Source of the DNA: Myxococcota bacterium
Lineage (GTDB): Bacteria > Myxococcota > UBA727 > VGSZ01
Direction: 5' to 3'
NCBI GenBank assembly: GCA_046593615.1
Contig: JBKJNL010000120.1
Span: 1 to 27,333, forward strand
Length of the DNA stretch: 27,333 nucleotides
Every line of letters begins with the position of its first letter. The first letter of the stretch is position 1. The notes under the pieces are model-generated. The model was not told the DNA's origin. It saw nothing but the letters and a program-made list of their open reading frames with translations, and searched no databases. This document shows, piece by piece, positions 3,814-25,053 of the stretch. A program made the translations under genes and the position numbers.

Positions 3814-3814
3814 G

Positions 3815-5594: not shown

Positions 5595-5627
5595 GCTGAA
5601 CGCGGGGCCGCACCACCGACGCGTGGC

Positions 5628-7932: not shown

Positions 7933-8017
7933 GCCCCTCGATTAGCAGAGCCGGGGCCGGGCGCGAGCGGAGTGTGTTTGTTCGCGCCGGTCGAAGCGAC
8001 GACACGGTCCAGCCGTG

Positions 8018-8045
8018 CACCAGCAGTCCACCAGCAGTCCACCAG
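8018..8045 (+). repeat. 11-bp tandem direct repeat CACCAGCAGTC x2.5 in the tam/crp intergenic region
   Basis: CACCAGCAGTC CACCAGCAGTC CACCAG read directly; ends 23 nt before the Crp-family ATG. Confidence 0.9.
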
Positions 8046-8056
8046 GCGGGGCGGGG

Positions 8057-8062
8057 TAGCGT
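8057..8062 (+). promoter_or_regulatory. Putative -10 box of a leaderless transcript for the Crp/Fnr gene
   Basis: TAGCGT (TANNNT) 6 nt before ATG 8069; no Shine-Dalgarno between them. Confidence 0.45.
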
Positions 8063-8068
8063 GCCGCC

Positions 8069-8836
8069 ATGAAGCGCGAGGACCTCATCGGGCACCTGCG
8101 GCGAAACGAGATCTTCGCCCGCACCGACGCCAAAAAGCTCGAGCAGCTGGCGGCCCTCGCCGACGTCGTCCCCGTCGACAAAGGCGGCCGCGTCCTCGAA
8201 GAAGGCGACGCCTCCGAGCACCTGTTCGTGCTCATCAAGGGCGTCGTCGGCGTCTTCTACTCCTCCGTCGACGGCGTCGACGTGCTCGTGAAGATCTTCG
8301 GGGCGCCGGCAGTGTTCGGTGAGATGGAGCTGATCTTCGGCCAGCCCCGCCAGGAGTACGTCGAGTGCTTCGAGCCGTGTCTGGTTGCTCGCTTGCCATC
8401 GCAGGAATTCATGTCCTTCATGCGCGCCGATTCCGAGGCCTGTTATGTGATGCTGAAAGACGTCGCGTCACGCCTGGCCATCGCCGCGTACAACGAGCGG
8501 GCCCTGGCGTTCCTCGATGCCAACACGCGGCTGGCGGGCCTGTTCTTGAGCTTCCTCGAGGCCTACGGCAAGCGCACCGACGACGGGGTGACGCTGCAGA
8601 TCAAGCTCACCTACGAGATGCTGGCGCGCTGCCTGGGGGTGACGGTGCGCTCCATCGACCGGGCCATGACCGAGTGGGCCAAGCAGGGGTTCATGACAAA
8701 AAACCGCGGCTTCTACACGTTCCATGATCTTGAAAAGCTCGAAGAAAAGGCTGACCCCGATCGGATTGCCTTGTTCTCGAAGCTCGGCCTCTTGCCCCAC
8801 CGCGCCGGCCAGATCCTCGGCCGCGGCGAGACCTGA
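8069..8836 (+). CDS. Crp/Fnr family transcriptional regulator
   Basis: cNMP-binding fold (VLEEGDASEHLFVLIKGVV, VFGEMELIFGQPR), C-helix, RLAGLFL, and HTH region LTYEMLARCLGVTVRSIDRAMTEW. Confidence 0.92.
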   Translation: MKREDLIGHLRRNEIFARTDAKKLEQLAALADVVPVDKGGRVLEEGDASEHLFVLIKGVVGVFYSSVDGVDVLVKIFGAPAVFGEMELIFGQPRQEYVECFEPCLVARLPSQEFMSFMRADSEACYVMLKDVASRLAIAAYNERALAFLDANTRLAGLFLSFLEAYGKRTDDGVTLQIKLTYEMLARCLGVTVRSIDRAMTEWAKQGFMTKNRGFYTFHDLEKLEEKADPDRIALFSKLGLLPHRAGQILGRGET

Positions 8837-8881
8837 ACGCACACCAGCGCGATTCGCCCGTCGCGCCACCACGACGACGTC

Positions 8882-9307
8882 TCAGTTTCCCGGCAGCTCT
8901 TCGCAGGCGGGGTCGGGGTCGAGCACGTCGAACAGCGCGACCTGCACGGTCAGCACCTCAGCGCTCGGCGCGAGCACGACGACGGAGCAGCCGACGAATT
9001 CGGCGTCGGCGGCGGCGCAGGTGGCGGGGCCGTCGCAGGCAAAGACGACGACGGCGGCTTGCTGGCCGGTGGCCTCGGTCTTGAGCTCGTAGGGGACCTT
9101 CTTGTCGCGCGGCGCGAGCACGGCTTCTTCTTCGTCGCCGACCCGCACCAGCAGGCTCTTGACCTCGCTGGTGTCGAGGCTCGCGGTGCTCTCTTCGACC
9201 ACCACCAGCAGCGTCAGCGCCGGGGCCCCACACGCCGACGCCAGGCCGGTCGCCAGCAGCACGGTGGCCCTCAAAGACCAGAGCAAACGGAGCGAACGCT
9301 GGGTCAT
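8882..9307 (-). CDS. Lipoprotein of unknown function
   Basis: Start moved to ATG 9307 (MTQRSLRLLWSLRATVLLATGLASAC, lipobox ASAC); ATGA overlap with the upstream gene; beta-rich with four further Cys. Confidence 0.75.
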   Translation of the reverse strand: MTQRSLRLLWSLRATVLLATGLASACGAPALTLLVVVEESTASLDTSEVKSLLVRVGDEEEAVLAPRDKKVPYELKTEATGQQAAVVVFACDGPATCAAADAEFVGCSVVVLAPSAEVLTVQVALFDVLDPDPACEELPGN

Positions 9308-10185
9308 GGGTCGAGGTCCGCGTCGAGCTGGGAGGCGTCGACCTCGACGGCGGTGGCGCCCCCGCCCGCGCTGGCGGCGACGACGCCGGCCACGACGGCA
9401 GCGACGACGACGACGCCGGCGACGCCCAGGCCGATCACGAGCCACGGCGGGCCTTGGTCTTCGTCGACGCCGCCGCCGCCGGGCTGCACCACCTCGTCGC
9501 CCGCGCCTGAAGCAGAAGACGCCGACGGGGTCGTCAGCGTGAGGTCCATCGGCGCGGTGACGTTGACCTTTTTGCCGGCGCCGCCGACGCCGACCCAATG
9601 GGGGCCGGGCAGCACGTCGAGGACGCCGCCGCGTTCGCCGACGTTGGGCGCGGGCCGGCCATCGAGCACCAGCCCGCCCCCCTCGGCCGAGCGCGGTCCC
9701 TTGACCTCGACGGTGAGCGGCACGGTGGGGCCGGCGAGCAGGCTCTCGCGCAGCTCTTCGAAGCGGGCGACGACCTTGGGGGGCACGAAGCTCTTGTCGG
9801 GTGACCAGGTCGGCCGCACGACGGCGAGGGCCCGCAAGACCTCGTCGGCCTCTGGCTCGCGCGCGAGGCGGCGCAGGGCGAGGGCCCGGGTCACGCGCGA
9901 GTCGGCCCAGGCGGTCCAGCTGGCGTCGTCGTCGCGCCAGGCGGGGCCCTGCTCGAACGCCAGCGCGACGGCGTCGGTGGCGGCGAGGGCGCCGGCGAAG
10001 TCGCCCTCGAGAAAGCGGGCGCGGGCCTCGGCGGCCCCCTGGTGCAGCTTGTTGCCAGCCGGGGCCTGTGCCGCCTTTGACGTCGCCCTCGCCGCCATCT
10101 GCTGGCCAGAAAGCCCCGTCGCCGACGACGGGGTGGAGAGGGCCAAAATGACGACGACGACGAGCACGGGCGGCCAGCAGACCAA
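9304..10185 (-). CDS. Exported protein with TPR-like helices, a PEGA-like domain and a C-terminal TM helix
   Basis: Hydrophobic N-terminus (TTG start, exact start uncertain); ARARFLEGDFAGALA helices; LTVEV...LVLDG...LDVLPGPHWVGV PEGA-like pattern; PPWLVIGLGVAGVVVVAAVVAGVVAA TM. Confidence 0.7.
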   Translation of the reverse strand: MVCWPPVLVVVVILALSTPSSATGLSGQQMAARATSKAAQAPAGNKLHQGAAEARARFLEGDFAGALAATDAVALAFEQGPAWRDDDASWTAWADSRVTRALALRRLAREPEADEVLRALAVVRPTWSPDKSFVPPKVVARFEELRESLLAGPTVPLTVEVKGPRSAEGGGLVLDGRPAPNVGERGGVLDVLPGPHWVGVGGAGKKVNVTAPMDLTLTTPSASSASGAGDEVVQPGGGGVDEDQGPPWLVIGLGVAGVVVVAAVVAGVVAASAGGGATAVEVDASQLDADLDP

Positions 10186-10218
10186 ATTTCCCCCCGACAG
10201 GCTAGGTTTTCAACGCCC

Positions 10219-12978
10219 ATGAGCTCCCAGCCCGCCCCCGGCCAATCCCCAGGCATGGACGCCCCGTCGACGACCGGCGGCGCCATCCCCGAAACGCTGG
10301 GGCGTTACCGGCTGCTGTCGAAGATCGCCAAAGGCGGCATGGCCGAGGTCTTTGCCGCCCGCTCCTACGGCGTGCACGGCTTCGAAAAGACCGTCGCGCT
10401 CAAGCGCATCCTCCCGCGCTTCGGCCAGGACCCGCAGTTCGTGCGGATGATGGTCGACGAGGCCAAGATCTCGGTGCTGTTGAACCACCCCAACATCGCC
10501 CAGATCCTCGAGCTCGGAGAACAAGACGGCGACTACTTCATCGTCATGGAATTCGTCGCCGGCCAATCGCTGTCGGCGATGGTCAAGCGGCTGAAAGAGA
10601 CCAACGAGCGCTTCCCGCGGCTCGAGGCCTGCTTCGTCGTCGTCGAGCTGCTCCAGGGTCTGCACGCCGCCCACAGCCAGACCGACATGAGCGGCAACGC
10701 CGCCGGCATCATCCACCGCGATGTCTCGCCGCAGAACACGCTGATGAGCTTCGACGGCCACGTGAAGGTCATCGACTTCGGCATCGCCCGCGCGCGCGAC
10801 CGGCTCGAGGCCACCGAGGTCGGCACCATCAAGGGCAAGCTCCGCTACCTGGCGCCCGAGATGATCGACCCGGGTCGCTTCACCGAAACCGGCGACTTCG
10901 ACCACCGCGTCGACGTCTTTGCCGCCGGCATCGTGCTCTGGGAGCTCGTCGCCGGCCGCACGATGTTCCCCGGCGACGACGAGCTCAAGGTCTACGACGA
11001 CATCACCGACGGCACGACGCCGGACCTCGTCAAAGAGGGCGCGTGCGACGCCGCGCTGATGAAGATCATCCACAAGGCGCTCGAGCGACGGCTGAGCAAG
11101 CGCTACGCGTCCGCCGAAGAATTCGCCGACGACCTGCGCTCCTACGTCTACCGGACCGATCCGGCGTTCACGCACAAGCGCGTCGCCGCCATGCTCGACA
11201 AGCACTTCCCCGACGAGAAGCACGATCTCACCGCCCTCGAGCGCGGCCAGTCCGCCGCCGACATCGTCGGCCTCAAGGGCCGCGACAGTGCCCAGAACAG
11301 CGCCCAGAACAAGGCTGCTCCGGGGGCTGCAAAGAAGTCGCCGCTCGGGGGCCCGCTGGCGCAGTCGTTGTCGGGCAACCTGCCGGCGGCGTCGGCGCAG
11401 ACGGCGCAAATCGGCGAGACCGATGTCCCGCCACCGGCCGAGACGCGGCACATGCGCTCCGACAAGCACGCGATGCCGCCGAGCCACGGCGGCCGCTCGG
11501 GACCCGGTGCGGCGGCCCCGGGACCCGGGCCGCGCGGGCGCGACGACGGCCTCTCGATGGCCGCCACCCAGCTCGTCGACGTCGACGCCGTCGACCCGGG
11601 CCGCGAGCTTGGCCGCGAGCTGGGTCGCGACCTGCCGCGCAACAAGGACCTCACCGTCGTCACCCTGGTCTCGCGCGAGCACGTGATGGCCACGAGCAAG
11701 GGCAGCAAGCAGGTCTCCGACTCCTCCGGCGTGTTTTCGATGCCCGACGACGCCACCCTGACGGTGACGGCGGACCAGCTGCGCGACCAGCGGGCCCGCA
11801 TCGACGCCCTGCGCGGCGCCTCGAGCGAGCGCGGCGCGGCGCCGACGCGGCCTGAGCGCGCCAACCGCGGGGCCGAGACTGCTGCTCCAGGGCTCGGTCC
11901 CGAGCCGTCCGCTCCAGGACCCGAGACACCGCGCGCGAGCACCGGCGAGCGCCCGCGCCTCGAGCGCTCGAGCAACCCCGCGCCACGCTCGCTCGACGAG
12001 ACGCCGATGACGCGCAAGGCGCTGCCGCTCTCGTCGTCGACCGGCGTCGACCGCGGCACCATCATCCGCAACCGTTTGATTGCGGCTTCGGCGACGGTGG
12101 GCGTGCTGCTGGCGCTGGGGATCGTCGCCGTCATCGAGGGCGCTGCTCGGCTCAAGCCCGGCGACGAGCCGGTGCCGGCGTCGATGACGTCGTTGACGCC
12201 GCCGACGCCGGTTCCCCCGCCGACGTTGACGCCGACTCCGGTTCCAACACCAACACCGACACCAACACCGGTTCCGGCGCCGATGGTCGACACCGGCACC
12301 GTCAAGGTGACGATCCGCTCCACCGTCGCCGGCGCCCTCGTCATCGTCGGCGACCAGCGCGGCCCGGCGCCGTTCACGCTGCAGGCCCGGCCAGGCGACA
12401 GCGTCACGGTGCGCGTGCAGGCGCCAGGCACGCTGGAAGAGGTCGAGACCGTCATGGTCCCGATGCCCGCCGGCGGCGCCGCCGGTGCCGACGTCGTCGT
12501 CGACGTCTCACCCCGCCTGCTCGCGGTGCCGGTGCGGCTGCAGGTCGAGCCCGCCGGCGCCGAGGTGCTCATCGACGGCGAGGTCGTCACCGCCGACACC
12601 ACCGTCGAGCCCGGCGTCTCGGTCGTCGTCGACGTCTCTGCCGCGGGCCACCTGTCGGCGCGGCAGGAGCTGAAGCCGGCGGCCGGCACGCCGCTGCTCA
12701 TCAAGGCCGTGCTGCAGAAATCGGGGCAGAAGAAGCCGCCGCCACCGCCGCCGCCGGTGCTGAAAGGCAACGGCACGCTGGCCTTGAAGACGACGCCGTT
12801 CTGGGGACAGGTCACAATCGACGGCAAGCTTGTCGACGAGCAGACGCCGCTGTCGCTGGCCCTGCCGGCGGGCCGCCATGACGTCGTCGTTTCCCACCCG
12901 CCCAAGGGCCTGGTGCGCAAGTTCAAGGTCGTCGTGAAGCCGGGCGAGACGGTGACCCGCACCATCACCTTTGACTGA
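10219..12978 (+). CDS. Membrane Ser/Thr protein kinase with extracytoplasmic PEGA-like domains
   Basis: IAKGGMAEVF, VALKRILP, HRDVSPQN, VKVIDFGIA, KGKLRYLAPE, DVFAAGIVLWE motifs; long low-complexity linker, one TM (ATVGVLLALGIVAVI), PT repeat stalk, three PEGA-like beta domains. Confidence 0.95.
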   Translation: MSSQPAPGQSPGMDAPSTTGGAIPETLGRYRLLSKIAKGGMAEVFAARSYGVHGFEKTVALKRILPRFGQDPQFVRMMVDEAKISVLLNHPNIAQILELGEQDGDYFIVMEFVAGQSLSAMVKRLKETNERFPRLEACFVVVELLQGLHAAHSQTDMSGNAAGIIHRDVSPQNTLMSFDGHVKVIDFGIARARDRLEATEVGTIKGKLRYLAPEMIDPGRFTETGDFDHRVDVFAAGIVLWELVAGRTMFPGDDELKVYDDITDGTTPDLVKEGACDAALMKIIHKALERRLSKRYASAEEFADDLRSYVYRTDPAFTHKRVAAMLDKHFPDEKHDLTALERGQSAADIVGLKGRDSAQNSAQNKAAPGAAKKSPLGGPLAQSLSGNLPAASAQTAQIGETDVPPPAETRHMRSDKHAMPPSHGGRSGPGAAAPGPGPRGRDDGLSMAATQLVDVDAVDPGRELGRELGRDLPRNKDLTVVTLVSREHVMATSKGSKQVSDSSGVFSMPDDATLTVTADQLRDQRARIDALRGASSERGAAPTRPERANRGAETAAPGLGPEPSAPGPETPRASTGERPRLERSSNPAPRSLDETPMTRKALPLSSSTGVDRGTIIRNRLIAASATVGVLLALGIVAVIEGAARLKPGDEPVPASMTSLTPPTPVPPPTLTPTPVPTPTPTPTPVPAPMVDTGTVKVTIRSTVAGALVIVGDQRGPAPFTLQARPGDSVTVRVQAPGTLEEVETVMVPMPAGGAAGADVVVDVSPRLLAVPVRLQVEPAGAEVLIDGEVVTADTTVEPGVSVVVDVSAAGHLSARQELKPAAGTPLLIKAVLQKSGQKKPPPPPPPVLKGNGTLALKTTPFWGQVTIDGKLVDEQTPLSLALPAGRHDVVVSHPPKGLVRKFKVVVKPGETVTRTITFD

Positions 12979-13151
12979 CGCGCCCGGTCACGAGCACGGG
13001 CCCGCCCGACGGTGACGCTGGCTCCTCTGGCGGCAGCAGAAGCCCCCTCTTCTTGCAACCGAAGCGCGGAAGCTGCATCTCAGTGCCCGCCCGGTGTGCC
13101 GCCTGCGGGCCGACGACGTCGTGGACGCCGCCGCCGACGTCAAAGGAAGCC

Positions 13152-15224
13152 GTGACCGACTACACCCTGCTGCCGAAGAACCAGAAGATCATGACGCTGG
13201 CGGGCACGCTGCTCGGCATGCTGCTGGCGGCGCTTGACCAGACCATCGTGGCCACGGCGGGTCCGTCGATTCAGAAAGACCTGCACATCGACCCCTCGCT
13301 CTACGTCTGGCTGACGACGTCATACCTGGTGGCGTCGACGGTGATGACGCCGATGTGGGGCAAGCTGTCGGACATCTTTGGCCGGCGCACCGTGCTCGTC
13401 ACCGGCATCAGCATCTTTCTGCTCGGCTCGCTGTTCTGCGGCATCTCGCAGAGCACCACGCAGCTGATCCTCGCTCGCGTGGTGCAAGGCATCGGCTCGG
13501 CGTCGTTGTTCACCACCGCCTTTGCCGTCGTCGCCGACCTGTTCACGCCCCGCGAGCGCGGCAAGTACGCCGGCATCTTTGGCGCCGTCTTCGGCCTGTC
13601 GTCGGTCATCGGCCCGCTCGTCGGCGGCTTCATCACCGACAACTTCGGCTGGCACTGGTGCTTCTTCATCAACCTGCCGATCGGCGCCGTCGCCCTCGGC
13701 GTCATCCTCACGCGCATGCCGGCGCTGACGCAGGAGCATCAGGCGAAGCCGACCATCGACTACCTCGGTGCCGCCCTCTTCGCCGTCGCCATCATCCCGC
13801 TGCTGCTGGCGTTGTCGTTCGGCAAGACCCGGGTCGAGCCCGGCGTGCCGGGGTTCTTGTGGCAGTCGTCAGAGATCGTCGGGATGTTCGCGGCCTTTGT
13901 CGTCTTTCTCACGACCTTCATCCTCTGGGAGCTGCGCGCGCGCGATCCGATGATCGACATGCGCATGTTCAAGAACCGGCCCTACGCCATCGGCAACGCC
14001 GCCAGCTTCACCGTCGGCATGGCGTTTCTCGGCGCCATCGTCTTTTTGCCGCTCTTCATGGTGAACGTGGTCGGCTCGTCGGCGACGTGGGCGGGCCTGG
14101 CCACGGTGCCCCTCACCTTTGGCATCGTCGCCGGCAACATCATCTCGGGGCAGGTGTCGTCGCGCACCGGCCGCTACAAATTCTTGATCGTCGGTGCCCT
14201 CGTCGTGCTGATGGCCGGCTTCGCGGTGATGGCGTTCACGGTGCACTCCGACTCCACGCAGCTGGGCATGGCCGGGCGCATGGTGCTGATTGGTCTGGGC
14301 CTCGGCCCGTCGATCCCGCTCTTCAACCTGCACATCTCGAACTCCGTCGAGCCCCACCAGATCGGCGCGGCGACGTCGACGGCGACGCTGGCCCGGTCGC
14401 TCGGTTCGACCATGGGCCTGGCCATCTTTGGCACCGTGTTCGGCACCACGCTGACGGGCGCCATGGAGCAACGCATGGCCGAAGCCACCGCCGGCGTTCC
14501 ACCGGCGATGGTCGCGCAGATGCGTTCGTCGTCGTCGTCGTCGACCGAGAGCGCCAGCGCTGAAGAGGGCGGGCGGGCCGGCACCGTGTTCGATCAGCAC
14601 GCCGTCGAAGCCAACGTGAAGCGTCGCTTCAGCGACCAGCGCAGCGCCATCGACCTGGCGTTGGGCAAAGACGATCCGGTGGCCCTCGCCGCGCTGAAGA
14701 ACAACCCGAACCTCGACGAGCGCCTCAAGGCCATCGTCGACGGCGGCGGCATCACGGCGTCGATCACCGCGGCTTTTGCCGCCTCGCAGCAGAAGGTGGC
14801 CGCCGGCGTCGAGCAGGGGCCCGACGCCGTCGCCGGCCTGCAGAGCGATCCGACGCTGCCGCCGCCGTTGAAAGCGAGCCTCGCCCAGATTCCGCCCGAG
14901 GCCCTCGCCTCCCCCGAAGGACGCGCCCAGGTCCTCGCCACCCTCGCGCACGACATGGCGCCCGCCCGCGACGCGGCCATCACCACGGCCCGCGCCCAGG
15001 CCATCGCTGGCGCCCACCAGGGGCTCGACGCGGCGGAGCAGACGGCGCTGTCGACGGTGGCCAAGGTCGGCGCGGCCCTCAAGGAGGCCTTCACCGACGC
15101 CATCACGCGCGTCTATCTGTTCGGCATTTTCTTTGCGTTGCTCGGTCTGCTGGTGTCGTTGGCGATCCCCGAGCTGCCCCTGCGCGGCGTCGGCCCCGGC
15201 GGCGCGCCGCCGCCGGTGGAGTGA
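13152..15224 (+). CDS. DHA2 (EmrB/QacA) 14-TM MFS efflux transporter with an extended loop before the last TM
   Basis: Start moved to GTG 13152 behind AAAGGAAG. Motifs LLAALDQTIVATAGP, WLTTSYL, WGKLSDIFGRR, ARVVQGIG, GPLVGGFIT, WHWCFFINLPIG, DPMID. Confidence 0.93.
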   Translation: MTDYTLLPKNQKIMTLAGTLLGMLLAALDQTIVATAGPSIQKDLHIDPSLYVWLTTSYLVASTVMTPMWGKLSDIFGRRTVLVTGISIFLLGSLFCGISQSTTQLILARVVQGIGSASLFTTAFAVVADLFTPRERGKYAGIFGAVFGLSSVIGPLVGGFITDNFGWHWCFFINLPIGAVALGVILTRMPALTQEHQAKPTIDYLGAALFAVAIIPLLLALSFGKTRVEPGVPGFLWQSSEIVGMFAAFVVFLTTFILWELRARDPMIDMRMFKNRPYAIGNAASFTVGMAFLGAIVFLPLFMVNVVGSSATWAGLATVPLTFGIVAGNIISGQVSSRTGRYKFLIVGALVVLMAGFAVMAFTVHSDSTQLGMAGRMVLIGLGLGPSIPLFNLHISNSVEPHQIGAATSTATLARSLGSTMGLAIFGTVFGTTLTGAMEQRMAEATAGVPPAMVAQMRSSSSSSTESASAEEGGRAGTVFDQHAVEANVKRRFSDQRSAIDLALGKDDPVALAALKNNPNLDERLKAIVDGGGITASITAAFAASQQKVAAGVEQGPDAVAGLQSDPTLPPPLKASLAQIPPEALASPEGRAQVLATLAHDMAPARDAAITTARAQAIAGAHQGLDAAEQTALSTVAKVGAALKEAFTDAITRVYLFGIFFALLGLLVSLAIPELPLRGVGPGGAPPPVE

Positions 15225-15284
15225 GGCGGATCGCCTGCGACGTCGACGCAGCAACGTGCCCCGGTCGCGTCGCTGCGCGCCAGC

Positions 15285-15308
15285 CGCGCGGCGAAATTTC
15301 ACCGCGCG
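15285..15308. repeat. Near-perfect 24-bp palindrome
   Basis: CGCGCGGCGAAATTTCACCGCGCG matches its reverse complement at 22 of 24 positions; intergenic, 57 nt before ATG 15366. Confidence 0.85.
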
Positions 15309-15365
15309 CCACCTCGAGGCAGCAGTTGCTGGCCAGGCCGGGGTCGAGCGGGCACATCAGCAAGC

Positions 15366-16607
15366 ATGAGCGCACCCCTTCTGCCGTCGCCGTTTTCGCC
15401 TCGCTGCTTCACCGCCATCGCGTTGTTCGTGTCGTCGTTGCTGGTGGCATGCCCATCACCGCCCACCATCGTCGACCCACCGCTCGCTGAGGGTGAGGGT
15501 GAGGGCGAAGGCGAAGGCGAAGGAGAGGGCGAAGGCGAAGCGGTCGGCGAAGGAGAAGGCGAAGCGGTCGGCGAAGGCTTCCCCGCGTGCACCGTCAGCG
15601 GCACCGCCGGCGTGACCTTCACCCGCGACGAGGGAGCGACGCTGGCGCCGACGTCGACGACGCTGTCGGGCACCGTCTACACCTATGGCCTGGCCGCGCT
15701 CGGCGACGGAAACCTCGTGGCCGAGCACGGCGGTCGCTTCTTGCGCTCGCGCGATCAGGGCTGCACCTGGACCGACCTCGGCGCAGCCCCGTTCTCGCCG
15801 ATGCGCATGAGCAGCGGCGCCGGCCGCGCCTACGCCTGGGCCGACAACAACCGCGAATTCGCCCGCATCGACGACGACGACAGCGTCCACGTGCTCACGC
15901 TCGCGCCACCGGGAGTCTGGAAGGGCCTGGCCGTCGACAGCGGCGGCGACGTCATCGCCGCCCTCGACGCGACGCTGCTGCGCTCGACCGACTTCGGCGT
16001 CACCTTTGACCGCGGCACCACACCCGCGTTCGTCGGCGACGACGCCGGCCTCGTCTACCGCGCGTTCTTCGACCCCAAGGACAGCGACCACGTCGTCGTT
16101 GGCGCCGCCACCGCCGGCGGCCGCGTCACCTTTGACGGCGGCGTCACCTGGACGGCCTCCACCGGCCTGTCGGTCTTTCCGTCGGCCACGAAGCAGAAGC
16201 GCGCGAACCTGTTCGAGGGCGTCATCTCGCCCGTCGACGGCGACGTCGTCTGGGCCGCCGGCATCGACGTCGAAGCCACCCTGCCGCCGAATGACCAGGG
16301 CAACGGCGCCCGCCACATCTACCGCTCCGGCGACGGCGGCCTGACCTTCGACGTCGTGGTCACCGCCAGCGCCGAGGTGACGATCATCAATGGACCCATG
16401 ATGGCCGCGAGCCCGTCAGACAAAGATGTCTTCTATTTCGTCTTCGGCACCTATTTCAACGACTACGGCACCGATATCTACCGCGTCGTCGTCGACGGCA
16501 CCGTCACCACCACCCACAACACGTACCACGATATATCGGCGCTGGTGTTTGCCCTGGATGATGTGGATACATTGTATCTTGGTCTGGTGAACGAAGTGAT
16601 CAACTGA
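15366..16607 (+). CDS. Lipoprotein beta-propeller with Asp-box repeats; homolog of dispase autolysis-inducing protein (DAIP)
   Basis: Lipobox LLVAC, Gly-Glu linker, Asp-boxes SRDQGCTW, STDFGVTF, TFDGGVTW, SGDGGLTF. Segments VTFTRDEGATLAPT, GTYFNDYGTDIYR and THNTYHDISAL...LYLGL match my recollection of Streptomyces mobaraensis DAIP. Confidence 0.78.
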   Translation: MSAPLLPSPFSPRCFTAIALFVSSLLVACPSPPTIVDPPLAEGEGEGEGEGEGEGEGEAVGEGEGEAVGEGFPACTVSGTAGVTFTRDEGATLAPTSTTLSGTVYTYGLAALGDGNLVAEHGGRFLRSRDQGCTWTDLGAAPFSPMRMSSGAGRAYAWADNNREFARIDDDDSVHVLTLAPPGVWKGLAVDSGGDVIAALDATLLRSTDFGVTFDRGTTPAFVGDDAGLVYRAFFDPKDSDHVVVGAATAGGRVTFDGGVTWTASTGLSVFPSATKQKRANLFEGVISPVDGDVVWAAGIDVEATLPPNDQGNGARHIYRSGDGGLTFDVVVTASAEVTIINGPMMAASPSDKDVFYFVFGTYFNDYGTDIYRVVVDGTVTTTHNTYHDISALVFALDDVDTLYLGLVNEVIN

Positions 16608-16652
16608 GCAGTCAGGCCCACAGAAGCAGGGGGGGGCGCTCAGCAGGTCTGC

Positions 16653-17933
16653 TCAGACGCGTTCGATGCGCGCGCCCAGGCCCTTGAGCCGCATCTCGAT
16701 GTTGGCGTAGCCGCGATCGATCTGCTGGGCGTTCTGGATGACGCTGCGGCCGTCGGCGACGAGCGCCGCGAGCAGCAGCGCCATGCCGGCCCGGATGTCG
16801 GGCGACGACATCGTCTGGGCGTAGAGGTGCGAGGGGCCCTCGACGATGCAGCGGTGCGGGTCGCAGACGGTGATGCGTGCGCCCATGCTGATGAGCTTGT
16901 CGACCCAGAAGAGCCGGCTCTCGTACATCCACTCGTGGATGAGCACGCTGCCCTTGCACCGCGTGGCCAGCACGACGGCGATCGAGATGAGGTCGGCGGG
17001 GAAGCCCGGCCACGGCGCGTCGTGGATGCGGGCGATGGCCCCGTGCAGACCGTGCTTGACCTCGAGCTCCTGGTCGGCCGGCACAAAGATGTCGTCGCCG
17101 CGGACCTCCCAGGTGACGCCGAGCCGGCCAAACGCCAGGGCGGTGATGCGGTGGTCGTCGGGACGCGCCTTTTGGATGAGCAGCGGCGACTTCGTCATCG
17201 CCGCCAGCGCGATGAAGCTGCCGACCTCGAGGTAGTCGGGGCCGACGTCAAAGGTGGCGCCGTGCAGCTTCTGGCGCCCCTCGACGATCAGGGTGTTGGT
17301 GCCGACCCCGTGGATGCTGGCGCCCATGGCGATGAGCAGGTTGCAGACGTCTTGCACGTGCGGCTCGCTGGCGGCGTTTCGGATCGTGGTCGTGCCCTTG
17401 GCCAACGACGCCGCCATCACGACGTTCTCGGTGGCCATGACGCTCATCTCGTCGAGAAAGATGTCGGCGCCGCGCAGCCCCTTGTCGGCGCGCATCACGT
17501 AGCGATCGGGAAAGACCTCGATGACGGCGCCGAGCTGCTGCAGCGCTGCGATGTGCGTGTCGACGGGGCGACGGCCGATGCGGTCACCGCCGGGCACGGG
17601 CAGGGTGCACGCGCCCATGCGCGCGAGCAGCGGCCCGGCGAGGGCGAAGCTGGCCCGCATCTGCCGGCACAGCTCGAGCGCCGGGGCTGTGCTCTTGATG
17701 TTCTTTGGCGTGACGGCGAAGCGGTTTTTTGCTTGTTCGACGACGTCGACGCCGATGTCCTGCAGCAGGGCCATCATGGTGTGCACGTCGCGGATGCGCG
17801 GGACGTTGCCGAGCACGACGGTGTCGTCGGTCAACACGGTGCAGGCCAGCAGGGGCAGGGCCGCGTTCTTGTTGCCCTCGACGGTGATGCTGCCCGTCAG
17901 CTTCTGCCCGCCCTCGATGATGAAGGTATCCAT
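16653..17933 (-). CDS. murA: UDP-N-acetylglucosamine 1-carboxyvinyltransferase MurA, Asp variant
   Basis: Start moved to ATG 17933 (MDTFIIEGG). Motifs GNKNAALP, MRASFALAGPL, PGGDRIGRRPVDTH, SVMATEN, NAASEPHVQD, PWPGFPAD, DIRAGMALL, IDRGY. Confidence 0.97.
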   Translation of the reverse strand: MDTFIIEGGQKLTGSITVEGNKNAALPLLACTVLTDDTVVLGNVPRIRDVHTMMALLQDIGVDVVEQAKNRFAVTPKNIKSTAPALELCRQMRASFALAGPLLARMGACTLPVPGGDRIGRRPVDTHIAALQQLGAVIEVFPDRYVMRADKGLRGADIFLDEMSVMATENVVMAASLAKGTTTIRNAASEPHVQDVCNLLIAMGASIHGVGTNTLIVEGRQKLHGATFDVGPDYLEVGSFIALAAMTKSPLLIQKARPDDHRITALAFGRLGVTWEVRGDDIFVPADQELEVKHGLHGAIARIHDAPWPGFPADLISIAVVLATRCKGSVLIHEWMYESRLFWVDKLISMGARITVCDPHRCIVEGPSHLYAQTMSSPDIRAGMALLLAALVADGRSVIQNAQQIDRGYANIEMRLKGLGARIERV

Positions 17934-18040
17934 GGTCTTTGCTGCTCCGCGTGGCTCGAGTTGGACGGCGCGCATGGTACTCCCGGAAAGGCCGCTGGCG
18001 CGGGCCGTTTGCAGCAACCAGAAAAATTCCTGACGACGTC

Positions 18041-18076
18041 GACACCGACGACGACACCGACGACGACACCGACGCC
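18041..18076. repeat. 12-bp tandem repeat GACACCGACGAC x3, intergenic
   Basis: GACACCGACGAC GACACCGACGAC GACACCGACGCC between divergent murA and the 18192 ORF. Confidence 0.8.
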
Positions 18077-18191
18077 GAAGTCGGGGGCGACCGCGTCGCT
18101 GTTGCCGTCGTGACAACGAAGCGGGTCGGCGCGCTGTTCCGCAAACGAAGGGTTGAGGTTCGCTGCGCGTGCGCTGCATCATCCGCCCCCG

Positions 18192-18500
18192 ATGGACGAG
18201 AGCGCCCAGGAATTCTGGTGCTACAAGCGCGGCCTGCTGGTGCTGCGTTTCTTGTCGTCGTCAGGCGTGTTCGTGCCGACCAAAGGACCGCTGCCACCCG
18301 AGCGCGATCCCGAAGGCCTGATGAAGCCCTGCACCTTTGCCTCCGGCCAGTTTCTCTCGGTGGAATGGGAGCCGCGGGTGCGTCTGCTGCTCGACCGCTC
18401 GCAAGACCTGGTCGAGCTCATCGAGCTCCTCGAGGATCGCCGCTACGAGGTCGACCTCGAGCCGCCGTCGAAAAAGGCCCGCCCCTTCCGCTTTCTGTGA
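18192..18500 (+). CDS. Small hypothetical protein (102 aa)
   Basis: ATG 18192 (MDESAQEFWCYKRGLL...); normal globular composition and G/C-ending codons; no family recognised. Confidence 0.65.
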   Translation: MDESAQEFWCYKRGLLVLRFLSSSGVFVPTKGPLPPERDPEGLMKPCTFASGQFLSVEWEPRVRLLLDRSQDLVELIELLEDRRYEVDLEPPSKKARPFRFL

Positions 18501-20756: not shown

Positions 20757-21857
20757 TCAGCGTCGACGTCGTCGACAAAAGGCCAGCAACGCCAGCGCCA
20801 GCGCCGACACGCCGCCGTGGACGCCGCGGCAGCCGCAGCTCTCGGGGGCGGCGACGCCGTCTGCGCCTTCGCCTTCGCCCTCGCCGGTTTCGTCGGGCTC
20901 GCCTTCGCCTTCTGCGGCGGCGGCAGCGTCGACGACGAAGCCGCTGGGAAAGACAAAGATGTCGGCGCCGCGTTGGGCGATCACGTCATACGTGCCGGCC
21001 GACAACGACGACGGCAGGCGTCCGCGCACGGCGCCGGCGCTGTCGACGACGGCGGCCGCGAGCGGTTGTGGGCCGAGCCGCACGGTGGTGTCGGCGGTGA
21101 AGCCGCTGCCGAGGACGACGACGTCGACGCCGCTGCCCGCGTTGGCCCGTGCCGGGATGATGCTCGTGACGGTGAGGACCGCGCCTTCGCCTTCGCCCTC
21201 GGCGGCTTCGCCCTCGCCTTCGCCTTCGCCTTCGCCCTCGCCTTCGCCGCCGCTGGGGACGAAGCGGCAAAAGGAGTCGTCGAGCGGCACGTCGGTCTCG
21301 ATGATCGCCCGGAAGATCCAGTCGCCGTCGACACCGAGGGCGTCGTTGTCGTACCAGCCCGGGCCGCCGAGCCCGTTGGGCGTGAAAATCACCGATTTGG
21401 CGTCGAGGCCGTCGGCGTCGCGGGCGATGCCGGGGAAGCCGTTGGTCCGGTAGACGAGCGACACCCAGAACTGGCCCGACAGCGCCAGCGTCGGCGACAC
21501 CGCGATCTCCGAGAAGTCGGTGTCGCTGTCGATGACCGGCGCGTCGCCGTCGTAGAGGACGGTGCCCGGGTAGCCGTCGGTGGCAAAGACGTCGCTGCCG
21601 TCGGGGGCGTAGACGCGCAGGCCTTCGGTGAGCCCCAAGCCGGGCGTGTCGCTGCCGCCCCAGGCGATGAGCATGCGCAGCAACGTCGCGCCGGCGGGGG
21701 GCGTGAAGCGCACGGCGGCCTCTTCGCCGACGACGAAGCCGCCCTGAAACGCCAACGCGTCGCCGGGGTTGTAGGAGTCCGAGCAGAGGATCCGCTCTTC
21801 GGCCGAGGCTGCGGGCGCGAACAGAGCAACGGCGAACAGCAGGCAGGTGGCACGCAT
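20757..21857 (-). CDS. Surface protein with a beta-sandwich domain, Gly-Glu linkers, IPT/TIG domain and MYXO-CTERM sorting signal
   Basis: Signal peptide MRATCLLFAVALFAPAASA; LTVTSIIPARANAGSGVDVVVLGSGF (IPT/TIG pattern); C-terminal SCGCRGVHGGVSALALALLAFCRRRRR. Confidence 0.85.
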   Translation of the reverse strand: MRATCLLFAVALFAPAASAEERILCSDSYNPGDALAFQGGFVVGEEAAVRFTPPAGATLLRMLIAWGGSDTPGLGLTEGLRVYAPDGSDVFATDGYPGTVLYDGDAPVIDSDTDFSEIAVSPTLALSGQFWVSLVYRTNGFPGIARDADGLDAKSVIFTPNGLGGPGWYDNDALGVDGDWIFRAIIETDVPLDDSFCRFVPSGGEGEGEGEGEGEGEAAEGEGEGAVLTVTSIIPARANAGSGVDVVVLGSGFTADTTVRLGPQPLAAAVVDSAGAVRGRLPSSLSAGTYDVIAQRGADIFVFPSGFVVDAAAAAEGEGEPDETGEGEGEGADGVAAPESCGCRGVHGGVSALALALLAFCRRRRR

Positions 21858-21937: not shown

Positions 21938-24900
21938 ATGTTGCCCCCATCCGTCGTCGCCACGCCCCTCTTTGCTCGCGCGCAAACGCTGCTCTGCGCG
22001 CTGGTGATCGCCTGCGCGTTCGGGGGCGCGCCCGCGCTGCGGGCCGAGGTGATCCTCCAGTACTTCGAGACGTCGTGGAGCGAGGTCGAAGCCCGCGTCC
22101 CCGAGATCAAAGCCGCCGGCTACGACGCCTTGTGGTTGCCGCCGCCGACCAAGGGCACCGAAGGCGTCCGCGACGTCGGCTTCGCCGTCTACGACCGCTT
22201 CGACCTCGGTGACCGCGACCAGCGCGGCACCACCGCCACGCGCTACGGCACGCACGCCGAGCTGCAGGCGCTGGTCGAGACCGCGCACCGCTTCGGCCTG
22301 CGCGTCTACTTCGACGTCGTCATGAACCACCATGGCAACCCGCAGACCATCGAAAACGTCGGCGTCACCGAAGCCGACATCGGCGGCATGGCTGAGCTCG
22401 GCGGGGCCGCTGGCTTCCCCGGGACGTCGGTGTGGGACTTCCATGTGCTGCCTGCGCGCGTGCCCGGCGACGGCCGCTGCCCCGACGACAACAACGCCAG
22501 CGGTTGCGAATTCTGCGCGCGCCAGCCCGCCGAAGCCAGCGCCAACGACGTCTTTGGCGGCCTGCAGTGGCGCGTCGCCAACGACAACGCCGGCAGCGGC
22601 GCCGAGGTCTGCATCAGGCGCGACGGCGGCGAGCTGCGCGTGGCCTCGTTGACCATCGCCGAGGCCATGGCCGATTCGGGCGCGCCGTCGTCGTTGCCGG
22701 GCTACTTCGCCGGCTACACCCACGTGGTGCGCGCGCCTCGCATGGACGACTTCGCCGACTTCGGCTTCGAGGTGACGAACTGGTCGCTGCTGGGCCTGCA
22801 CGACCTCGCCACCGAGCAGTACGCCAACGGCGATGGCCCCCTCGCCAACGACGGCGACAACGCCGTGGTCGGCACCGCGCTGCCCCGCTTCACGCGCAAC
22901 GACCGCGACGCCCTCGACCGCAGCACCTACCGCTTCGGCGACGGCGTCGGCGGCGCCGCCACACCCCACGCCGAAGACACGCGCCAGTGGCTCATCCGCT
23001 GGATCCGCTGGCTCATGATGGACACCGGCGCCGACGGCTTCCGCCTCGACGCCATCAAGCACGTCTGGCCCAGCTTCTACGGCGAGGATTTCCCCGACGA
23101 CCCCATCGCGTTCAACAAGGTCATCCAGGACACCTACGACGAGCTGCATGCCTTTACCGACGTCGACGACTTCGACCTCGTCGACGACGCCGCCATCTTT
23201 GGCGAAGACTTCACCGGCAGCTGCGACGCCTTGAGGCCCTACATCGTCGGCGGGCAGCGGGCCCTCGACTTCCCGTTGTTCTTCAACATCGGCGGGCGCA
23301 GCGGCCTGTTCAGCGGCGACATCGGCCAGCTCTCTGAAAAGGCGCCACCGGGGTGCCCAGGCATCGGCGCCTTTGGCGGGCTGAACCGCTTGAGCGGCAT
23401 CGGCTTTGTGCAGTCGCACGACGAGTGCGGCGCTCCCGGTGGCGCGTTCGCGGCCAGCAACCGCGACCCGCGCTTCTCGCGCTGCGAGGTCGACGGCGGC
23501 TACCGCAGCGGCGCCACCGACCTCAGCCACGCCTTTGTGCTCACGCGCGACGCCGACAGCGCGGTCTTCTACGACGGCAACAACTGGACCTCCGACAGCT
23601 TCGTCCGCTCGGGCCGCGCCGACGCGCTCGGCGAGACGTTCTCGGGCAGCGCCCAGCTCGAGCTGGTGACGACGGTGCGCGCCGCCCGCCGCATCGCCCG
23701 CGGCACGATGGACAACCTCTGGGTCGGCGACAACGCCTGGGCCTACGAGCGCGACGTCGCTGGACCAGCTGGCGCGAAGCTGGCCGCCGGCCTCGTCGTG
23801 CTCAACGACGGACAAGGGGGCGACGTGGGCTTCGGCGACGACGCCAACCAGGGCTCGTTCATCGTCACGCGCTTTCCGCCCGGCACCTTTCTCGAAGACA
23901 TCAGCGGCAACGGCCAGTTCGCCGCCAGCTTGACCGTGCTCGACCCCGACCTGCTGCCCGTCGCCGAGCAGCCCGAGGTCAGCGAGGCCCGCCGCCGCTT
24001 CTCTGTCGTCAACGACGGCGCCAGCACCGCCGGCCTCGGCGTCGTCTTTGCCGGCGTGCCGGCGCGTTCGTGGGTGATGTTTGCGCCGCCGGCCTTTGCG
24101 GCAGGCAGCGAGGTCACCCTTGAGCTGAAGGACATCCCGCTCGCGTCGCTGTCGCCGGGCGTGCACGCCCTGCACGTGCGCTTCGTCCGCGCCGTCGACG
24201 GCGCCGCTGACGCCCACGACGAATTGGTGCTCTCGCTGTGCGTGCCGCTGGCTGGCGACGCTTCGCTGTGCGGGCCGGTTGCCAGCGGGGCCGGCGGGGT
24301 GAGCGTGCCCGCCGGCGACCCCATCGCCAGCGGCACCGTCGCCTTGCTCGTCGACGGCACCGTGCCCGAGCGCCGCAGCGTCGAGACCGCGCCCGGCCGA
24401 CTCCTGCCCGACAACGCTCCCGTGGCCCGCGCGGTCGAGCACCTGGTGGTCGTCGACGGTGACGCCCTCGACGTCGTCGTCAATACCGCGGCGCTGCGGG
24501 CGCCCACGCTGGTGGCCATCCGCCTCGACGACGATGCCGAGCTCGTGCCGGGCACGCCCATCCGGGCCTCGGCCGAGCGCTTCGTCGACGGCTTCGTGCG
24601 CCTGCGCCTGCCGGGTGAGCCGGGCGAAGGCGAGGGCGAGGGAGAAGGCGAGGCGGGCGAGGGCGAAGGCGAAGCCGTCGGTGAAGGCGAAGGCGAAGGC
24701 GCCGAAGGAGAAGGCGAAGGCGAAGGCGAGGTCGACCCCGACGGCGACGACGACAGCGATGGCGTCAACAACGGCGACGACGTGTGCCCGCTGGTGCGCG
24801 ATGCCGATCAACAGGACTTCGACGAAGACGGCGTCGGCGATGCCTGCGACCGCTGCCCCGACGTCATCGGCAGCGACGTCACCGGCTGTCCGGCGCTGTC

Positions 24901-25051: not shown

Positions 25052-25053
25052 TC

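What the first reader, a model, noticed from the sequence alone, without database searches (positions are those of the whole stretch)
15366..16607. Membrane-anchored homolog of Streptomyces dispase autolysis-inducing protein (DAIP)
Seen: an Asp-box propeller lipoprotein. From memory, the similarity to S. mobaraensis DAIP spans the whole mature protein: CTVSGTAGVTFTRDEGATLAPT...YTYGLAAL, RSRDQGCTW, FFDPKDSDHVVVG, ANLFEGVISPVD, GTYFNDYGTDIYR (16446-16484), THNTYHDISAL, LYLGL. Established: DAIP is a 7-bladed propeller that triggers autolysis of M4 neutral metalloproteases such as dispase and thermolysin. Inference: a lipid-anchored version on a GE spacer could shield a Gram-negative predator's surface from prey or competitor M4 proteases, or control its own. 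The match rests on my recall, not on an alignment.
Basis: partly seen in the sequence, partly recalled or inferred. Interest (0 to 1): 0.75.

Follow-up and report, generated by a model that had tools for sequence, protein, structure and literature searches.

The report
Lipid-anchored DAIP homolog in a myxobacterium
This gene encodes a membrane-tethered copy of a Streptomyces propeller protein (DAIP) that makes thermolysin-type proteases destroy themselves; it is a genuine but fairly ordinary member of that small family, and its action on proteases is predicted, not shown.

Summary
The ORF at 15366-16607 (+) is real and encodes 413 aa. Residues 71-408 align end to end with S. mobaraensis DAIP (PDB 5FZP/6FHP, E 2.4e-64). 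Identity to a Streptomyces DAIP ortholog is 47%. The AlphaFold model superposes on 5FZP (TM 0.93, rmsd 1.8 A); the next folds, Ycf48 and GH74, reach TM 0.65 or less. The N-terminus is a lipoprotein signal (lipobox LVAC, Cys29) followed by a 45-residue Pro/(GE)n spacer.

All Myxococcota homologs examined carry a lipobox plus a low-complexity spacer. Acidobacteriota and Actinomycetota homologs have plain signal peptides. NCBI already names some lipobox-bearing Myxococcota MAG homologs "dispase autolysis-inducing protein".

The (GE)n spacer is not specific to this gene: 138 open frames in this genome carry it.

The five transglutaminase-reactive glutamines of DAIP are not kept. Neither a transglutaminase nor an M4 protease was found in this 77%-complete MAG.

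A complex prediction with mature thermolysin passed (ipSAE 0.88, best control 0.00). A related complex is already solved, so this may be model memory.

The phylogeny does not require recent transfer from Actinobacteria.

Verdict: a new member of a known family. The recalled similarity is confirmed; the protective role against foreign M4 proteases is plausible but untested.

The parts
15366..15452 (+). Lipoprotein (type II) signal peptide, residues 1-29. It has an n-region with Arg13, a hydrophobic helix at 12-25, and the lipobox L26-V27-A28-C29 (nt 15441-15452). Cys29 is the predicted lipidated first residue of the mature protein.
   Evidence: Sequence. AF2 places a helix at 12-25. The same signal + lipobox + spacer layout is found in the closest homologs P0002-P0004 and in all Myxococcota homologs examined.
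15453..15587 (+). Disordered spacer, residues 30-74. It has a Pro-rich start (PSPPTIVDPP), then a (GE)n/(GEAV) low-complexity stretch at residues 42-71 (nt 15489-15578).
   Evidence: Composition is 13 G, 13 E and 6 P in 45 residues. pLDDT is 33-49. Spacer length and composition vary among homologs: GE, G/T, T/S/E or D/A/T, 15-115 aa.
15588..16604 (+). DAIP-type seven-bladed beta-propeller, residues 75-413 (about 36 kDa, pI 4.4). It carries the family-invariant Cys75/Cys133 pair.
   Evidence: phmmer to 5fzp_A E 2.4e-64. Foldseek to 5fzp_B E 3.3e-39, TM 0.93, rmsd 1.8 A. AF2 pLDDT about 90. Invariant columns are listed.
15747..15770 (+). Asp-box 1 (SRDQGCTW, residues 128-135), which contains Cys133.
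   Evidence: Regex on the translation; invariant S128, D130, G132, C133 and W135.
15984..16007 (+). Asp-box 2 (STDFGVTF, residues 207-214).
   Evidence: D209 and G211 are invariant.
16128..16151 (+). Asp-box 3 (TFDGGVTW, residues 255-262). This is the only stretch that touches the Pfam BNR model, and it scores below threshold.
16326..16349 (+). Asp-box 4 (SGDGGLTF, residues 321-328).
   Evidence: S321, G324 and G325 are invariant.
16434..16484 (+). Most conserved non-Asp-box motif of the family, residues 357-373 (YFVFGTYFNDYGTDIYR). Residues 361-367 lie in the predicted contact surface with thermolysin. Asn365 replaces the transglutaminase-reactive Gln298 of DAIP.
   Evidence: Invariant Y357, F360, G361, G368 and T369. 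Per-residue conservation over 226 family members. Interface list. Gln298 context from PMC8229434 and the alignment.

Best explanation
The gene encodes an exported lipoprotein of a soil Myxococcota MAG. After Sec export it is predicted to be lipidated at Cys29 (lipobox LVAC). It is held on the membrane by a 45-residue proline/(GE)n polyanionic, disordered spacer. The remainder is a 36 kDa seven-bladed Asp-box propeller orthologous in fold and motifs to Streptomyces mobaraensis DAIP. By homology, the propeller face carrying the conserved residues Y231, N281/F283, N342-G343 and the loop G361-Y367 binds thermolysin-like (M4) neutral metalloproteases. The predicted contact covers the protease's active-site cleft and C-terminal helical domain. 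Binding would inhibit or distort the protease so that it autolyses. Because the host genome shows no M4 protease, the likeliest role is protection of the cell envelope against M4 proteases secreted by soil competitors. In S. mobaraensis DAIP is cross-linked by transglutaminase. Here, and in all Myxococcota homologs examined, tethering is by a lipid anchor plus spacer instead. Shown: the ORF, family membership, the fold, lipobox conservation, and loss of the transglutaminase Gln sites. Inferred: lipidation, which membrane and which side, binding of M4 proteases, and the protective role.
For: Sequence: 5fzp_A/6fhp_A E 2.4e-64 over query 71-408; 47% identity to a Streptomyces DAIP ortholog, which itself matches 5fzp_A at E 1.3e-157. 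Fold: AF2 pLDDT about 90 in the propeller; Foldseek 5fzp_B TM 0.93, rmsd 1.8 A, 41% identity, against TM 0.65 or less for Ycf48 and GH74. Family-invariant residues, including C75/C133 and the YFxFGTYFxxYGTD motif, are kept. Anchor: the lipobox is present, and all Myxococcota homologs examined carry a lipobox plus a low-complexity spacer. These include Polyangium, Nannocystis, Archangium and MAGs. Acidobacteriota and Actinomycetota homologs have plain signal peptides. Binding: complex prediction with mature thermolysin gave ipSAE 0.88 in three runs, with the best of 3 controls at 0.00. That mark was reached by 51 of 78 solved complexes and 2 of 108 mismatched pairs. The interface uses Y231, N281, F283, N342, G343 and 361-367. 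On thermolysin it uses mature residues 114-119, 146-160 and 269-294. The 6FHP entry is DAIP with a C-terminal thermolysin fragment, whose residue numbers span at least 258-310. No M4 domain and no microbial transglutaminase were found in the own genome. DAIP's established activity on bacillolysin and thermolysin is stated in PMC4757070.
Against: No experiment bears on this protein. The complex pass may come from model memory of 6FHP, as the tool itself warns. The predicted interface as a whole is not more conserved than the rest of the protein (mean 0.47 against 0.51, Mann-Whitney p 0.77); only its core residues are. For a diderm, a lipoprotein may face the periplasm, where foreign proteases would not normally reach, and topology is unknown. 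Genomic context gives no functional link: the neighbours are an MFS transporter, murA and a lipocalin, and the MFS neighbours in other phyla are not orthologous. The MAG is only 77% complete, so absence of an own M4 protease is not proven. Only one family member has ever been characterised, so conservation of activity at 47% identity is an assumption. No RNA evidence of expression was found.
Confidence: 0.58

Rival explanations
1. It is a true DAIP-family propeller lipoprotein, but with a different ligand. In this reading the family's common function is binding some other extracytoplasmic protein or polymer, and action on M4 proteases is a speciality of the Streptomyces branch.
For: Only one member has been characterised. 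Identity to it is 47%. Peripheral interface residues vary across the family. In Thermoanaerobaculia the gene sits with an acyltransferase, an MFS transporter or an S10 carboxypeptidase rather than anything pointing to M4 proteases. The nearest other fold, Ycf48, binds an unrelated peptide.
Against: The core of the predicted thermolysin contact (Y231, N281, F283, N342, G343, G361, F364, Y367) is conserved in 63-95% of 226 family members. The thermolysin complex prediction passed with controls at 0.00.
Confidence: 0.27
2. It regulates or disposes of the organism's own secreted metalloprotease. This would be self-protection or timing of an endogenous M4 or M4-like enzyme, rather than defence against foreign ones.
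For: Polyangium and Nannocystis genomes that carry the gene also carry 2-4 M4 proteases. S. mobaraensis itself secretes a metalloprotease alongside DAIP.
Against: No PF01447 or PF02868 match was found in the own genome at 77% completeness. Of three other carriers in the same family, two have none and one has only a 30-bit match. Two non-carriers do have an M4 protease. No protease gene neighbours it in the window.
Confidence: 0.08
3. It is a sialidase/BNR-type glycoside hydrolase or glycan-binding protein, as many database names for family members suggest.
For: It has four Asp-boxes. Database names for homologs include 'sialidase family protein' and 'exo-alpha-sialidase'. There are weak sub-threshold hits to BNR, Sortilin-Vps10 and the F510_1955 glycosylhydrolase model.
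Against: All those hits are far below the curated cut-offs: 18.5 against 27, 14.9 against 33, and 27.5 against 175 bits. Foldseek to GH74 enzymes gives TMq at most 0.54, rmsd 5-9 A and 13-17% identity, against TM 0.93 to DAIP. DAIP has no reported glycosidase activity (own knowledge).
Confidence: 0.04

Closest known systems
Dispase autolysis-inducing protein (DAIP) of Streptomyces mobaraensis (UniProt P84908; PDB 5FZP, 6FHP)
   Same: There is end-to-end homology (E 2.4e-64; about 41-47% identity). The seven-bladed Asp-box propeller superposes at TM 0.93. The N-terminal Cys/blade-1 Cys pair is conserved, as are the GTYFxxYGTD, NLF, NG and THN motifs. Both proteins are exported.
   Different: DAIP is a secreted Gram-positive protein that transglutaminase cross-links through Gln39, 65, 144, 298 and 345. 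Here those positions are Ser101, Leu126, Thr203, Asn365 and a non-Gln residue near 411. No transglutaminase was found, though that search had no positive control. The protein instead has a lipobox and a 45-residue (GE)n spacer. Activity on M4 proteases has not been measured here.
Database homologs already named 'dispase autolysis-inducing protein' by NCBI in Myxococcota/Deltaproteobacteria MAGs (P0173, P0240) and Thermoanaerobaculia MAGs (P0214, P0220, P0251)
   Same: They belong to the same family (42-48% identity, about 99-100% coverage). P0173 and P0240 also have a lipobox and an acidic low-complexity spacer.
   Different: They sit on different sub-branches: the window protein belongs to a well-supported six-member clade with L002, L003 and P0002-P0004. 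The spacer composition differs, GE here against D/A/S/T there. None of them has been studied.
Ycf48/HCF136 photosystem II assembly factor (PDB 2XBG, 5OJR)
   Same: It is also a seven-bladed BNR-type propeller that binds a partner peptide on one face. It is the next-best structural match (E about 3e-11).
   Different: TM is only 0.65 at best, rmsd about 7 A and identity 12-13%. P0001 has no PF14870 hit. The biology is unrelated.
GH74 xyloglucanases and sialidase-type BNR glycosidases
   Same: They share Asp-box repeats and beta-propeller blades.
   Different: GH74 enzymes are two-propeller proteins of about 700 aa. TMq is at most 0.54 and identity 13-17%. Family models score far below threshold.

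Membership tests
DAIP family (S. mobaraensis DAIP, PDB 5FZP/6FHP) | Significant sequence similarity over the whole mature chain | tested here: met
   phmmer E 2.4e-64, query 71-408 against chain 8-342 of 348. BLASTP gives 47% identity over 341 aa to a Streptomyces ortholog, which is itself E 1.3e-157 to 5fzp_A.
DAIP family (S. mobaraensis DAIP, PDB 5FZP/6FHP) | Seven-bladed beta-propeller superposable on the DAIP crystal structure | tested here: met
   The AF2 model has propeller pLDDT about 90. Foldseek to 5fzp_B gives TM 0.93, rmsd 1.8 A over 349 columns; the next fold reaches TM 0.65 at best.
DAIP family (S. mobaraensis DAIP, PDB 5FZP/6FHP) | Conserved cysteine pair (N-terminal strand and first Asp-box) and the conserved aromatic loop GTYFxxYGTD | tested here: met
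   C75 and C133 align with the two Cys of DAIP and are invariant in 16 homologs. The loop at 361-370 is conserved. Disulfide formation itself is not testable here.
DAIP family (S. mobaraensis DAIP, PDB 5FZP/6FHP) | Export out of the cytoplasm | tested here: met
   An N-terminal signal with a lipobox is present. Signal peptides occur in all full-length homologs examined.
DAIP family (S. mobaraensis DAIP, PDB 5FZP/6FHP) | Binds M4 neutral metalloproteases and triggers their autolysis or inhibits them (the defining activity) | tested here: inconclusive
   Only an in-silico test was possible. Predicted complex with mature thermolysin: ipSAE 0.88, best of 3 controls 0.00; the mark was reached by 51 of 78 solved complexes and 2 of 108 mismatches. 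The pass may reflect memory of 6FHP. Biochemical activity is not testable with these tools.
DAIP family (S. mobaraensis DAIP, PDB 5FZP/6FHP) | Substrate of microbial transglutaminase through Gln39/65/144/298/345 (a property of the S. mobaraensis protein, not necessarily of the family) | tested here: not met
   The Gln contexts come from PMC8229434. The aligned positions here are S101, L126, T203, N365 and a non-Gln residue near 411. PF09017 was not found in the own genome, but that search had no positive control.
Bacterial lipoproteins (signal peptidase II substrates) | A positively charged n-region, a hydrophobic h-region and a lipobox [LVI][ASTVI][GAS]C near residue 15-35 | tested here: met
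   R13, hydrophobic stretch 14-25, and L26-V27-A28-C29. The equivalent lipobox is conserved in all Myxococcota homologs examined.
Bacterial lipoproteins (signal peptidase II substrates) | Actual acylation, and sorting to the inner or outer membrane | not testable with these tools
   This needs globomycin or palmitate labelling and cell fractionation. The +2 residue is Pro, not the Lys that I recall as the inner-membrane retention signal in Myxococcus (own knowledge).
Sialidase / BNR glycoside hydrolases (incl. NCBIfam F510_1955, GH74) | Score above the curated family threshold and fold match to a glycosidase propeller | tested here: not met
   BNR 18.5 against 27 bits; Sortilin-Vps10 14.9 against 33; F510_1955 27.5 against 175. 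GH74 structures give TMq at most 0.54 and 13-17% identity.
Ycf48/HCF136 | PF14870 match and close fold match | tested here: not met
   P0001 has no PF14870 hit at E up to 1. Foldseek gives TM 0.65 at best and 12-13% identity.

The most novel reading that the evidence does not exclude
Myxococcota as a phylum have turned the DAIP propeller into a lipid-tethered device held on a long disordered spacer. All Myxococcota homologs examined share this layout, with spacers of unrelated composition. The device would patrol the cell surface or outer-membrane vesicles and disarm thermolysin-type proteases of competitors or prey. It would be a Gram-negative counterpart to transglutaminase cross-linking of DAIP into the Streptomyces wall. 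In this lineage the tether uses a genome-wide (GE)n linker idiom found in more than 100 exported proteins.
Probability: 0.35. Interest if true: 0.6.

Novelty: new member of a known kind. Interest (0 to 1): 0.42.

Why it matters
DAIP is the only known protein that disarms thermolysin-like (M4) proteases by provoking their autolysis, and it has been studied in a single Streptomyces species. M4 proteases include many secreted enzymes of soil competitors and of pathogens. This analysis shows that the family is small, at about 370 clusters at 50% identity. It is patchy: 7 of 401 Myxococcota genomes and 2 of 401 Actinomycetes genomes carry it. It also spans Myxococcota, Acidobacteriota, Actinomycetota and Planctomycetota. 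The Myxococcota branch is uniformly lipid-anchored on a spacer. If activity is conserved, these proteins would be a second, membrane-tethered solution to the same defensive problem, and a source of natural variants for anti-protease applications. The family has no Pfam or NCBIfam model and is inconsistently named in databases (sialidase, Ycf48-like, WD40/BNR, DAIP). A curated model would therefore correct many annotations.

Tried and rejected
1. The first word-based homolog search was swamped by the GE repeat and gave only 21 hits with no Streptomyces. Repeating it on residues 72-413 gave 133 hits.

2. The two primary DAIP papers (JBC 2016, FEBS J 2018) are not held. I could only show that the Tyr/Phe-rich loop is conserved and lies in the predicted interface.

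3. A conserved neighbour was sought by all-against-all BLAST of flanking ORFs from 55 loci. An MFS transporter lies next to the gene in the window, in L002 and in several Thermoanaerobaculia loci. These transporters share only 26-31% identity over about 150 aa, so they are not orthologs, and in L002 the gene is inverted. This lead was rejected as a functional link.

4. I tested whether the predicted interface is more conserved than the rest of the protein. It is not (p 0.77).

5. Own-genome searches for M4 protease domains and microbial transglutaminase were negative. The MAG is 77% complete, and the transglutaminase search had no positive control.

6. Recent transfer from Actinobacteria is not supported. 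Actinomycetota and Acidobacteriota each form their own clades, and a single Myxococcota clade is not rejected.

7. The promoter/terminator scan of 15000-16900 found no promoter-like site. It found two terminator-like sites, about as many as in shuffled sequence and neither at the gene's ends. No clear Shine-Dalgarno sequence precedes the ATG.

8. No RNA run holds the gene, so there is no expression evidence.

9. Earlier findings of this scan hold nothing on this sequence or topic.
Full report
**1. Observation**

The ORF 15366..16607 (+) exists. It encodes 413 aa and begins at the first start codon after the upstream in-frame stop. Its codon-position GC profile is that of a real gene in this 70% GC window (GC3 0.84).

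The N-terminus reads as a lipoprotein signal. It has Arg13, a hydrophobic stretch at 14-25 (predicted helix 12-25) and the lipobox LVAC ending at Cys29. Then follow 45 residues of Pro-rich and (GE)n low-complexity sequence (13 Gly, 13 Glu). AlphaFold leaves most of residues 1-71 at pLDDT below 50.

**2. Is the DAIP similarity real?**

Yes. phmmer against all PDB chains gives the two DAIP entries at E 2.4e-64 and 3.2e-64. The match covers query 71-408 against chain 8-342 of 348. Everything else has E above 0.01 and is caused by the GE repeat.

A Streptomyces protein (P0194), itself E 1.3e-157 to 5fzp_A, is 47% identical over 341 residues.

An AlphaFold2 model built on 16 homologs has pLDDT about 90 across the propeller. 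Foldseek against PDB returns 5fzp_B, 6fhp_A and 5fzp_A first (E 3e-39 to 6e-38, TM 0.91-0.93, rmsd 1.7-1.9 A, 41% identity). The next hits are Ycf48 and GH74 xyloglucanases at E about 1e-10 to 1e-11, TM 0.65 or less, and 12-17% identity.

Pfam and NCBIfam have no model for this family. Only sub-threshold BNR, Sortilin-Vps10 and F510_1955 hits appear, both for this protein and for Streptomyces and MAG homologs.

**3. The family**

An exhaustive HMMER scan of 1.84 billion cluster representatives finds 373 clusters at E up to 1e-3 and 95 at E up to 1e-30. It is a small family.

A pattern-seeded scan of one genome per species found 55 loci. They fall in four phyla:
- Myxococcota: Polyangium, Nannocystis, Archangium and several MAGs.
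- Acidobacteriota: many Thermoanaerobaculia and one Blastocatellia.
- Actinomycetota: Sphaerisporangium, Actinophytocola and Actinocrispum.
- One Planctomycetales MAG.

The patterns used bias this list toward close relatives.

The gene is rare:
- 7 of 401 sampled Myxococcota genomes carry it, own genome included; in the window's own genus, 2 of 5 others do.
- 2 of 401 sampled genomes of the class containing Sphaerisporangium carry it, including the centre genome.

The window's MAG (6.0 Mb, 1046 contigs, 77% complete) has one copy.

The word-based search restricted to the propeller shows that NCBI already names several homologs 'dispase autolysis-inducing protein'. Two of these are from Myxococcota/Deltaproteobacteria MAGs (P0173, P0240) and three from Thermoanaerobaculia. 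Others are called sialidase, exo-alpha-sialidase, WD40/YVTN/BNR-like or photosystem II assembly factor-like. No paper in the searchable library discusses DAIP homologs outside Streptomyces.

**4. The anchor**

I classified the N-termini of database homologs and of ORFs from named genomes.

Every Myxococcota sequence examined has a lipobox followed by a low-complexity spacer of about 25-115 residues. This holds for the window clade, Polyangium, Polyangiaceae MAGs, Nannocystis, Archangium minus and Deltaproteobacteria MAGs. The spacer composition differs by lineage:
- GE in the window clade (P0002-P0004).
- Gly/Thr in Polyangium.
- Thr/Ser/Glu in Nannocystis.
- Asp/Ala/Thr in several MAGs.

Acidobacteriota homologs have an ordinary signal peptide and a short Arg-rich junction. 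Actinomycetota homologs have ordinary signal peptides. In total, 46 database homologs met my lipobox criteria.

The membrane-anchored architecture is therefore a trait of the whole Myxococcota branch, not a peculiarity of this gene.

The GE spacer itself is generic in this organism. In this genome 138 open frames of at least 100 aa carry (GE) repeated four or more times, and 44 of them carry it directly after a lipobox-like motif. Two other proteins in this window have such linkers.

**5. What was lost relative to DAIP**

The five transglutaminase-reactive glutamines of DAIP (Gln39, 65, 144, 298, 345; contexts from PMC8229434) align here with Ser101, Leu126, Thr203, Asn365 and a non-Gln residue near 411. 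No microbial transglutaminase domain was found in the genome, although that search had no positive control.

A lipid anchor plus spacer can be read as an alternative way of immobilising the propeller at the cell envelope. This is inference.

**6. Phylogeny**

A maximum-likelihood tree of 60 sequences gives these groupings:
- Acidobacteriota form one clade (99*).
- Most Actinomycetota, including the Streptomyces DAIP orthologs, form one clade (96*).
- The window protein sits in a strongly supported six-member clade of Myxococcota MAG and metagenome sequences (100*).

Deep nodes are unresolved. Myxococcota appear in several pieces, but a tree holding all 25 Myxococcota sequences together is not rejected (delta lnL 3.5, p-AU 0.40). 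I named that group by taxonomy after seeing the tree. There is thus no evidence for a recent transfer from Actinobacteria into this lineage. The pattern fits an old, frequently lost accessory gene.

Between the window and its closest syntenic relative L002, murA is 90% identical, the MFS transporter 71% and the DAIP-like protein 65%. The DAIP-like gene therefore evolves comparatively fast.

**7. Function**

DAIP is established to destroy neutral metalloproteases such as bacillolysin and thermolysin by triggering autolysis (PMC4757070). PDB 6FHP is DAIP bound to a C-terminal fragment of thermolysin. A secondary source lists residue numbers 258-310 for that chain. The mechanism paper is Fiebig et al., FEBS J 2018, PMID 30171661, cited. 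It is not held, so details of the mechanism rest on my memory.

- The score was ipSAE 0.88 in all three runs, against 0.00 for the best of three controls.
- The tool's mark was reached by 51 of 78 solved complexes and 2 of 108 mismatched pairs.
- The tool warns that a pass may come from memory when a similar complex is solved. The pass therefore shows likeness, not that this copy binds.

On the propeller, the interface comprises residues 144-145, 159-161, 228-231, 248-249, 281, 283, 300-313, 335-343 and 361-367. Its core is conserved in 63-95% of 226 family members (N161, Y231, N281, F283, N342, G343, G361, T362, F364, Y367). Its periphery is variable. Overall the interface is not more conserved than the rest of the protein (p 0.77).

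On thermolysin, the contacts translate to mature residues 114-119, 146-147, 150-160, 165 and 269-294. From textbook knowledge of thermolysin's zinc ligands and substrate-binding residues, these are the active-site cleft and the C-terminal helices.

**8. Context**

The neighbours, in window order, are:
- mraZ-rsmH-ftsI at 384-4342 (-).
- A Crp-type regulator.
- A Ser/Thr kinase with a PEGA domain.
- A 14-TM-type MFS transporter directly upstream, separated by a 141-nt gap.
- murA, convergent downstream.
- A lipocalin lipoprotein, a HEAT-repeat protein, a TIG-domain protein and an alpha-amylase-like protein.

None points to a function.

No M4 protease domain was found in the MAG. Among relatives of the same family, carriers mostly lack M4 proteases and two non-carriers have one. 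Polyangium and Nannocystis have both. This gives no support to 'controls its own M4 protease' and is compatible with a role against foreign enzymes. The samples are small and the MAGs incomplete.

The DNA is found in soil metagenomes from one study, and no RNA run holds it.

**9. Verdict**

The protein is a bona fide member of the DAIP family, carried on a lipoprotein anchor and a disordered spacer.

The functional reading is neutralisation of foreign thermolysin-like proteases at the envelope. It is the best-supported mechanism (confidence about 0.6), but it rests on homology at 47% identity and on one in-silico complex. The membrane, the topology and the natural target are unknown.

It is a new member of a known kind. 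The one point of wider interest is that the whole Myxococcota branch uses lipid tethering where Streptomyces uses transglutaminase cross-linking.

Noticed in passing
whole genome G000; in the window 15489-15578 (+), 21210-21251 (-), 24623-24652 (+): A genome-wide (GE)n linker idiom. 138 open frames of at least 100 aa carry (GE) repeated four or more times, and 44 of them carry it directly after a lipobox-like motif. Many repeats sit between Cys-rich modules. Three proteins in this window have one: the DAIP-like protein, the TIG-domain protein and the alpha-amylase-like protein.
   Followed up: partly
L013, L024, L029, L037, L039, L040 (about 5300-9000); L021, L027, L040 (about 5000-9000): In Thermoanaerobaculia the DAIP-like gene follows, on the same strand, an MFS/OATP-like transporter and a PF01553 acyltransferase. 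In other loci it lies beside a divergently oriented S10 serine carboxypeptidase. This synteny is specific to that clade and is not shared with Myxococcota.
   Followed up: partly
L002:5578-10874 versus window 13053-18500: The closest syntenic relative has the same MFS / DAIP-like / murA neighbourhood, but the MFS gene is inverted. Identities are murA 90%, MFS 71% and DAIP-like 65%, so the DAIP-like gene diverges fastest.
   Followed up: no
window 384-2756 (-): The FtsI-like class B penicillin-binding protein of the mraZ-rsmH-ftsI cluster carries a C-terminal PASTA domain (30 bits, residues 721-762). As far as I know, that domain is more typical of Gram-positive PBPs and kinases.
   Followed up: no
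window 10219-12978 (+): A Ser/Thr protein kinase of 919 aa with a C-terminal PEGA domain lies two genes upstream. Paralogous kinases lie near the DAIP-like gene in Polyangium loci, which probably reflects only the abundance of kinases in Myxococcota.
   Followed up: no
database-wide: The DAIP family has no Pfam or NCBIfam model, and its members are named inconsistently. Names include sialidase family protein, exo-alpha-sialidase, WD40/YVTN/BNR-like, photosystem II stability/assembly factor-like, and dispase autolysis-inducing protein.
   Followed up: partly
The genome search sample of the phylum: The same GTDB order as the window's 6 Mb genome contains a family (f2) of genomes of only about 0.3-3.4 Mb at 87-100% estimated completeness. 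That is an odd size range for Myxococcota and I have no explanation for it.
   Followed up: no
window 4473-5594 (+), 5864-7135 (-), 9059-10222 (+) / 9304-10185 (-), 24924-27332 (+): Several long open frames with gene-like GC3 have no Pfam match. At 9059-10222 it is unclear which strand codes.
   Followed up: no
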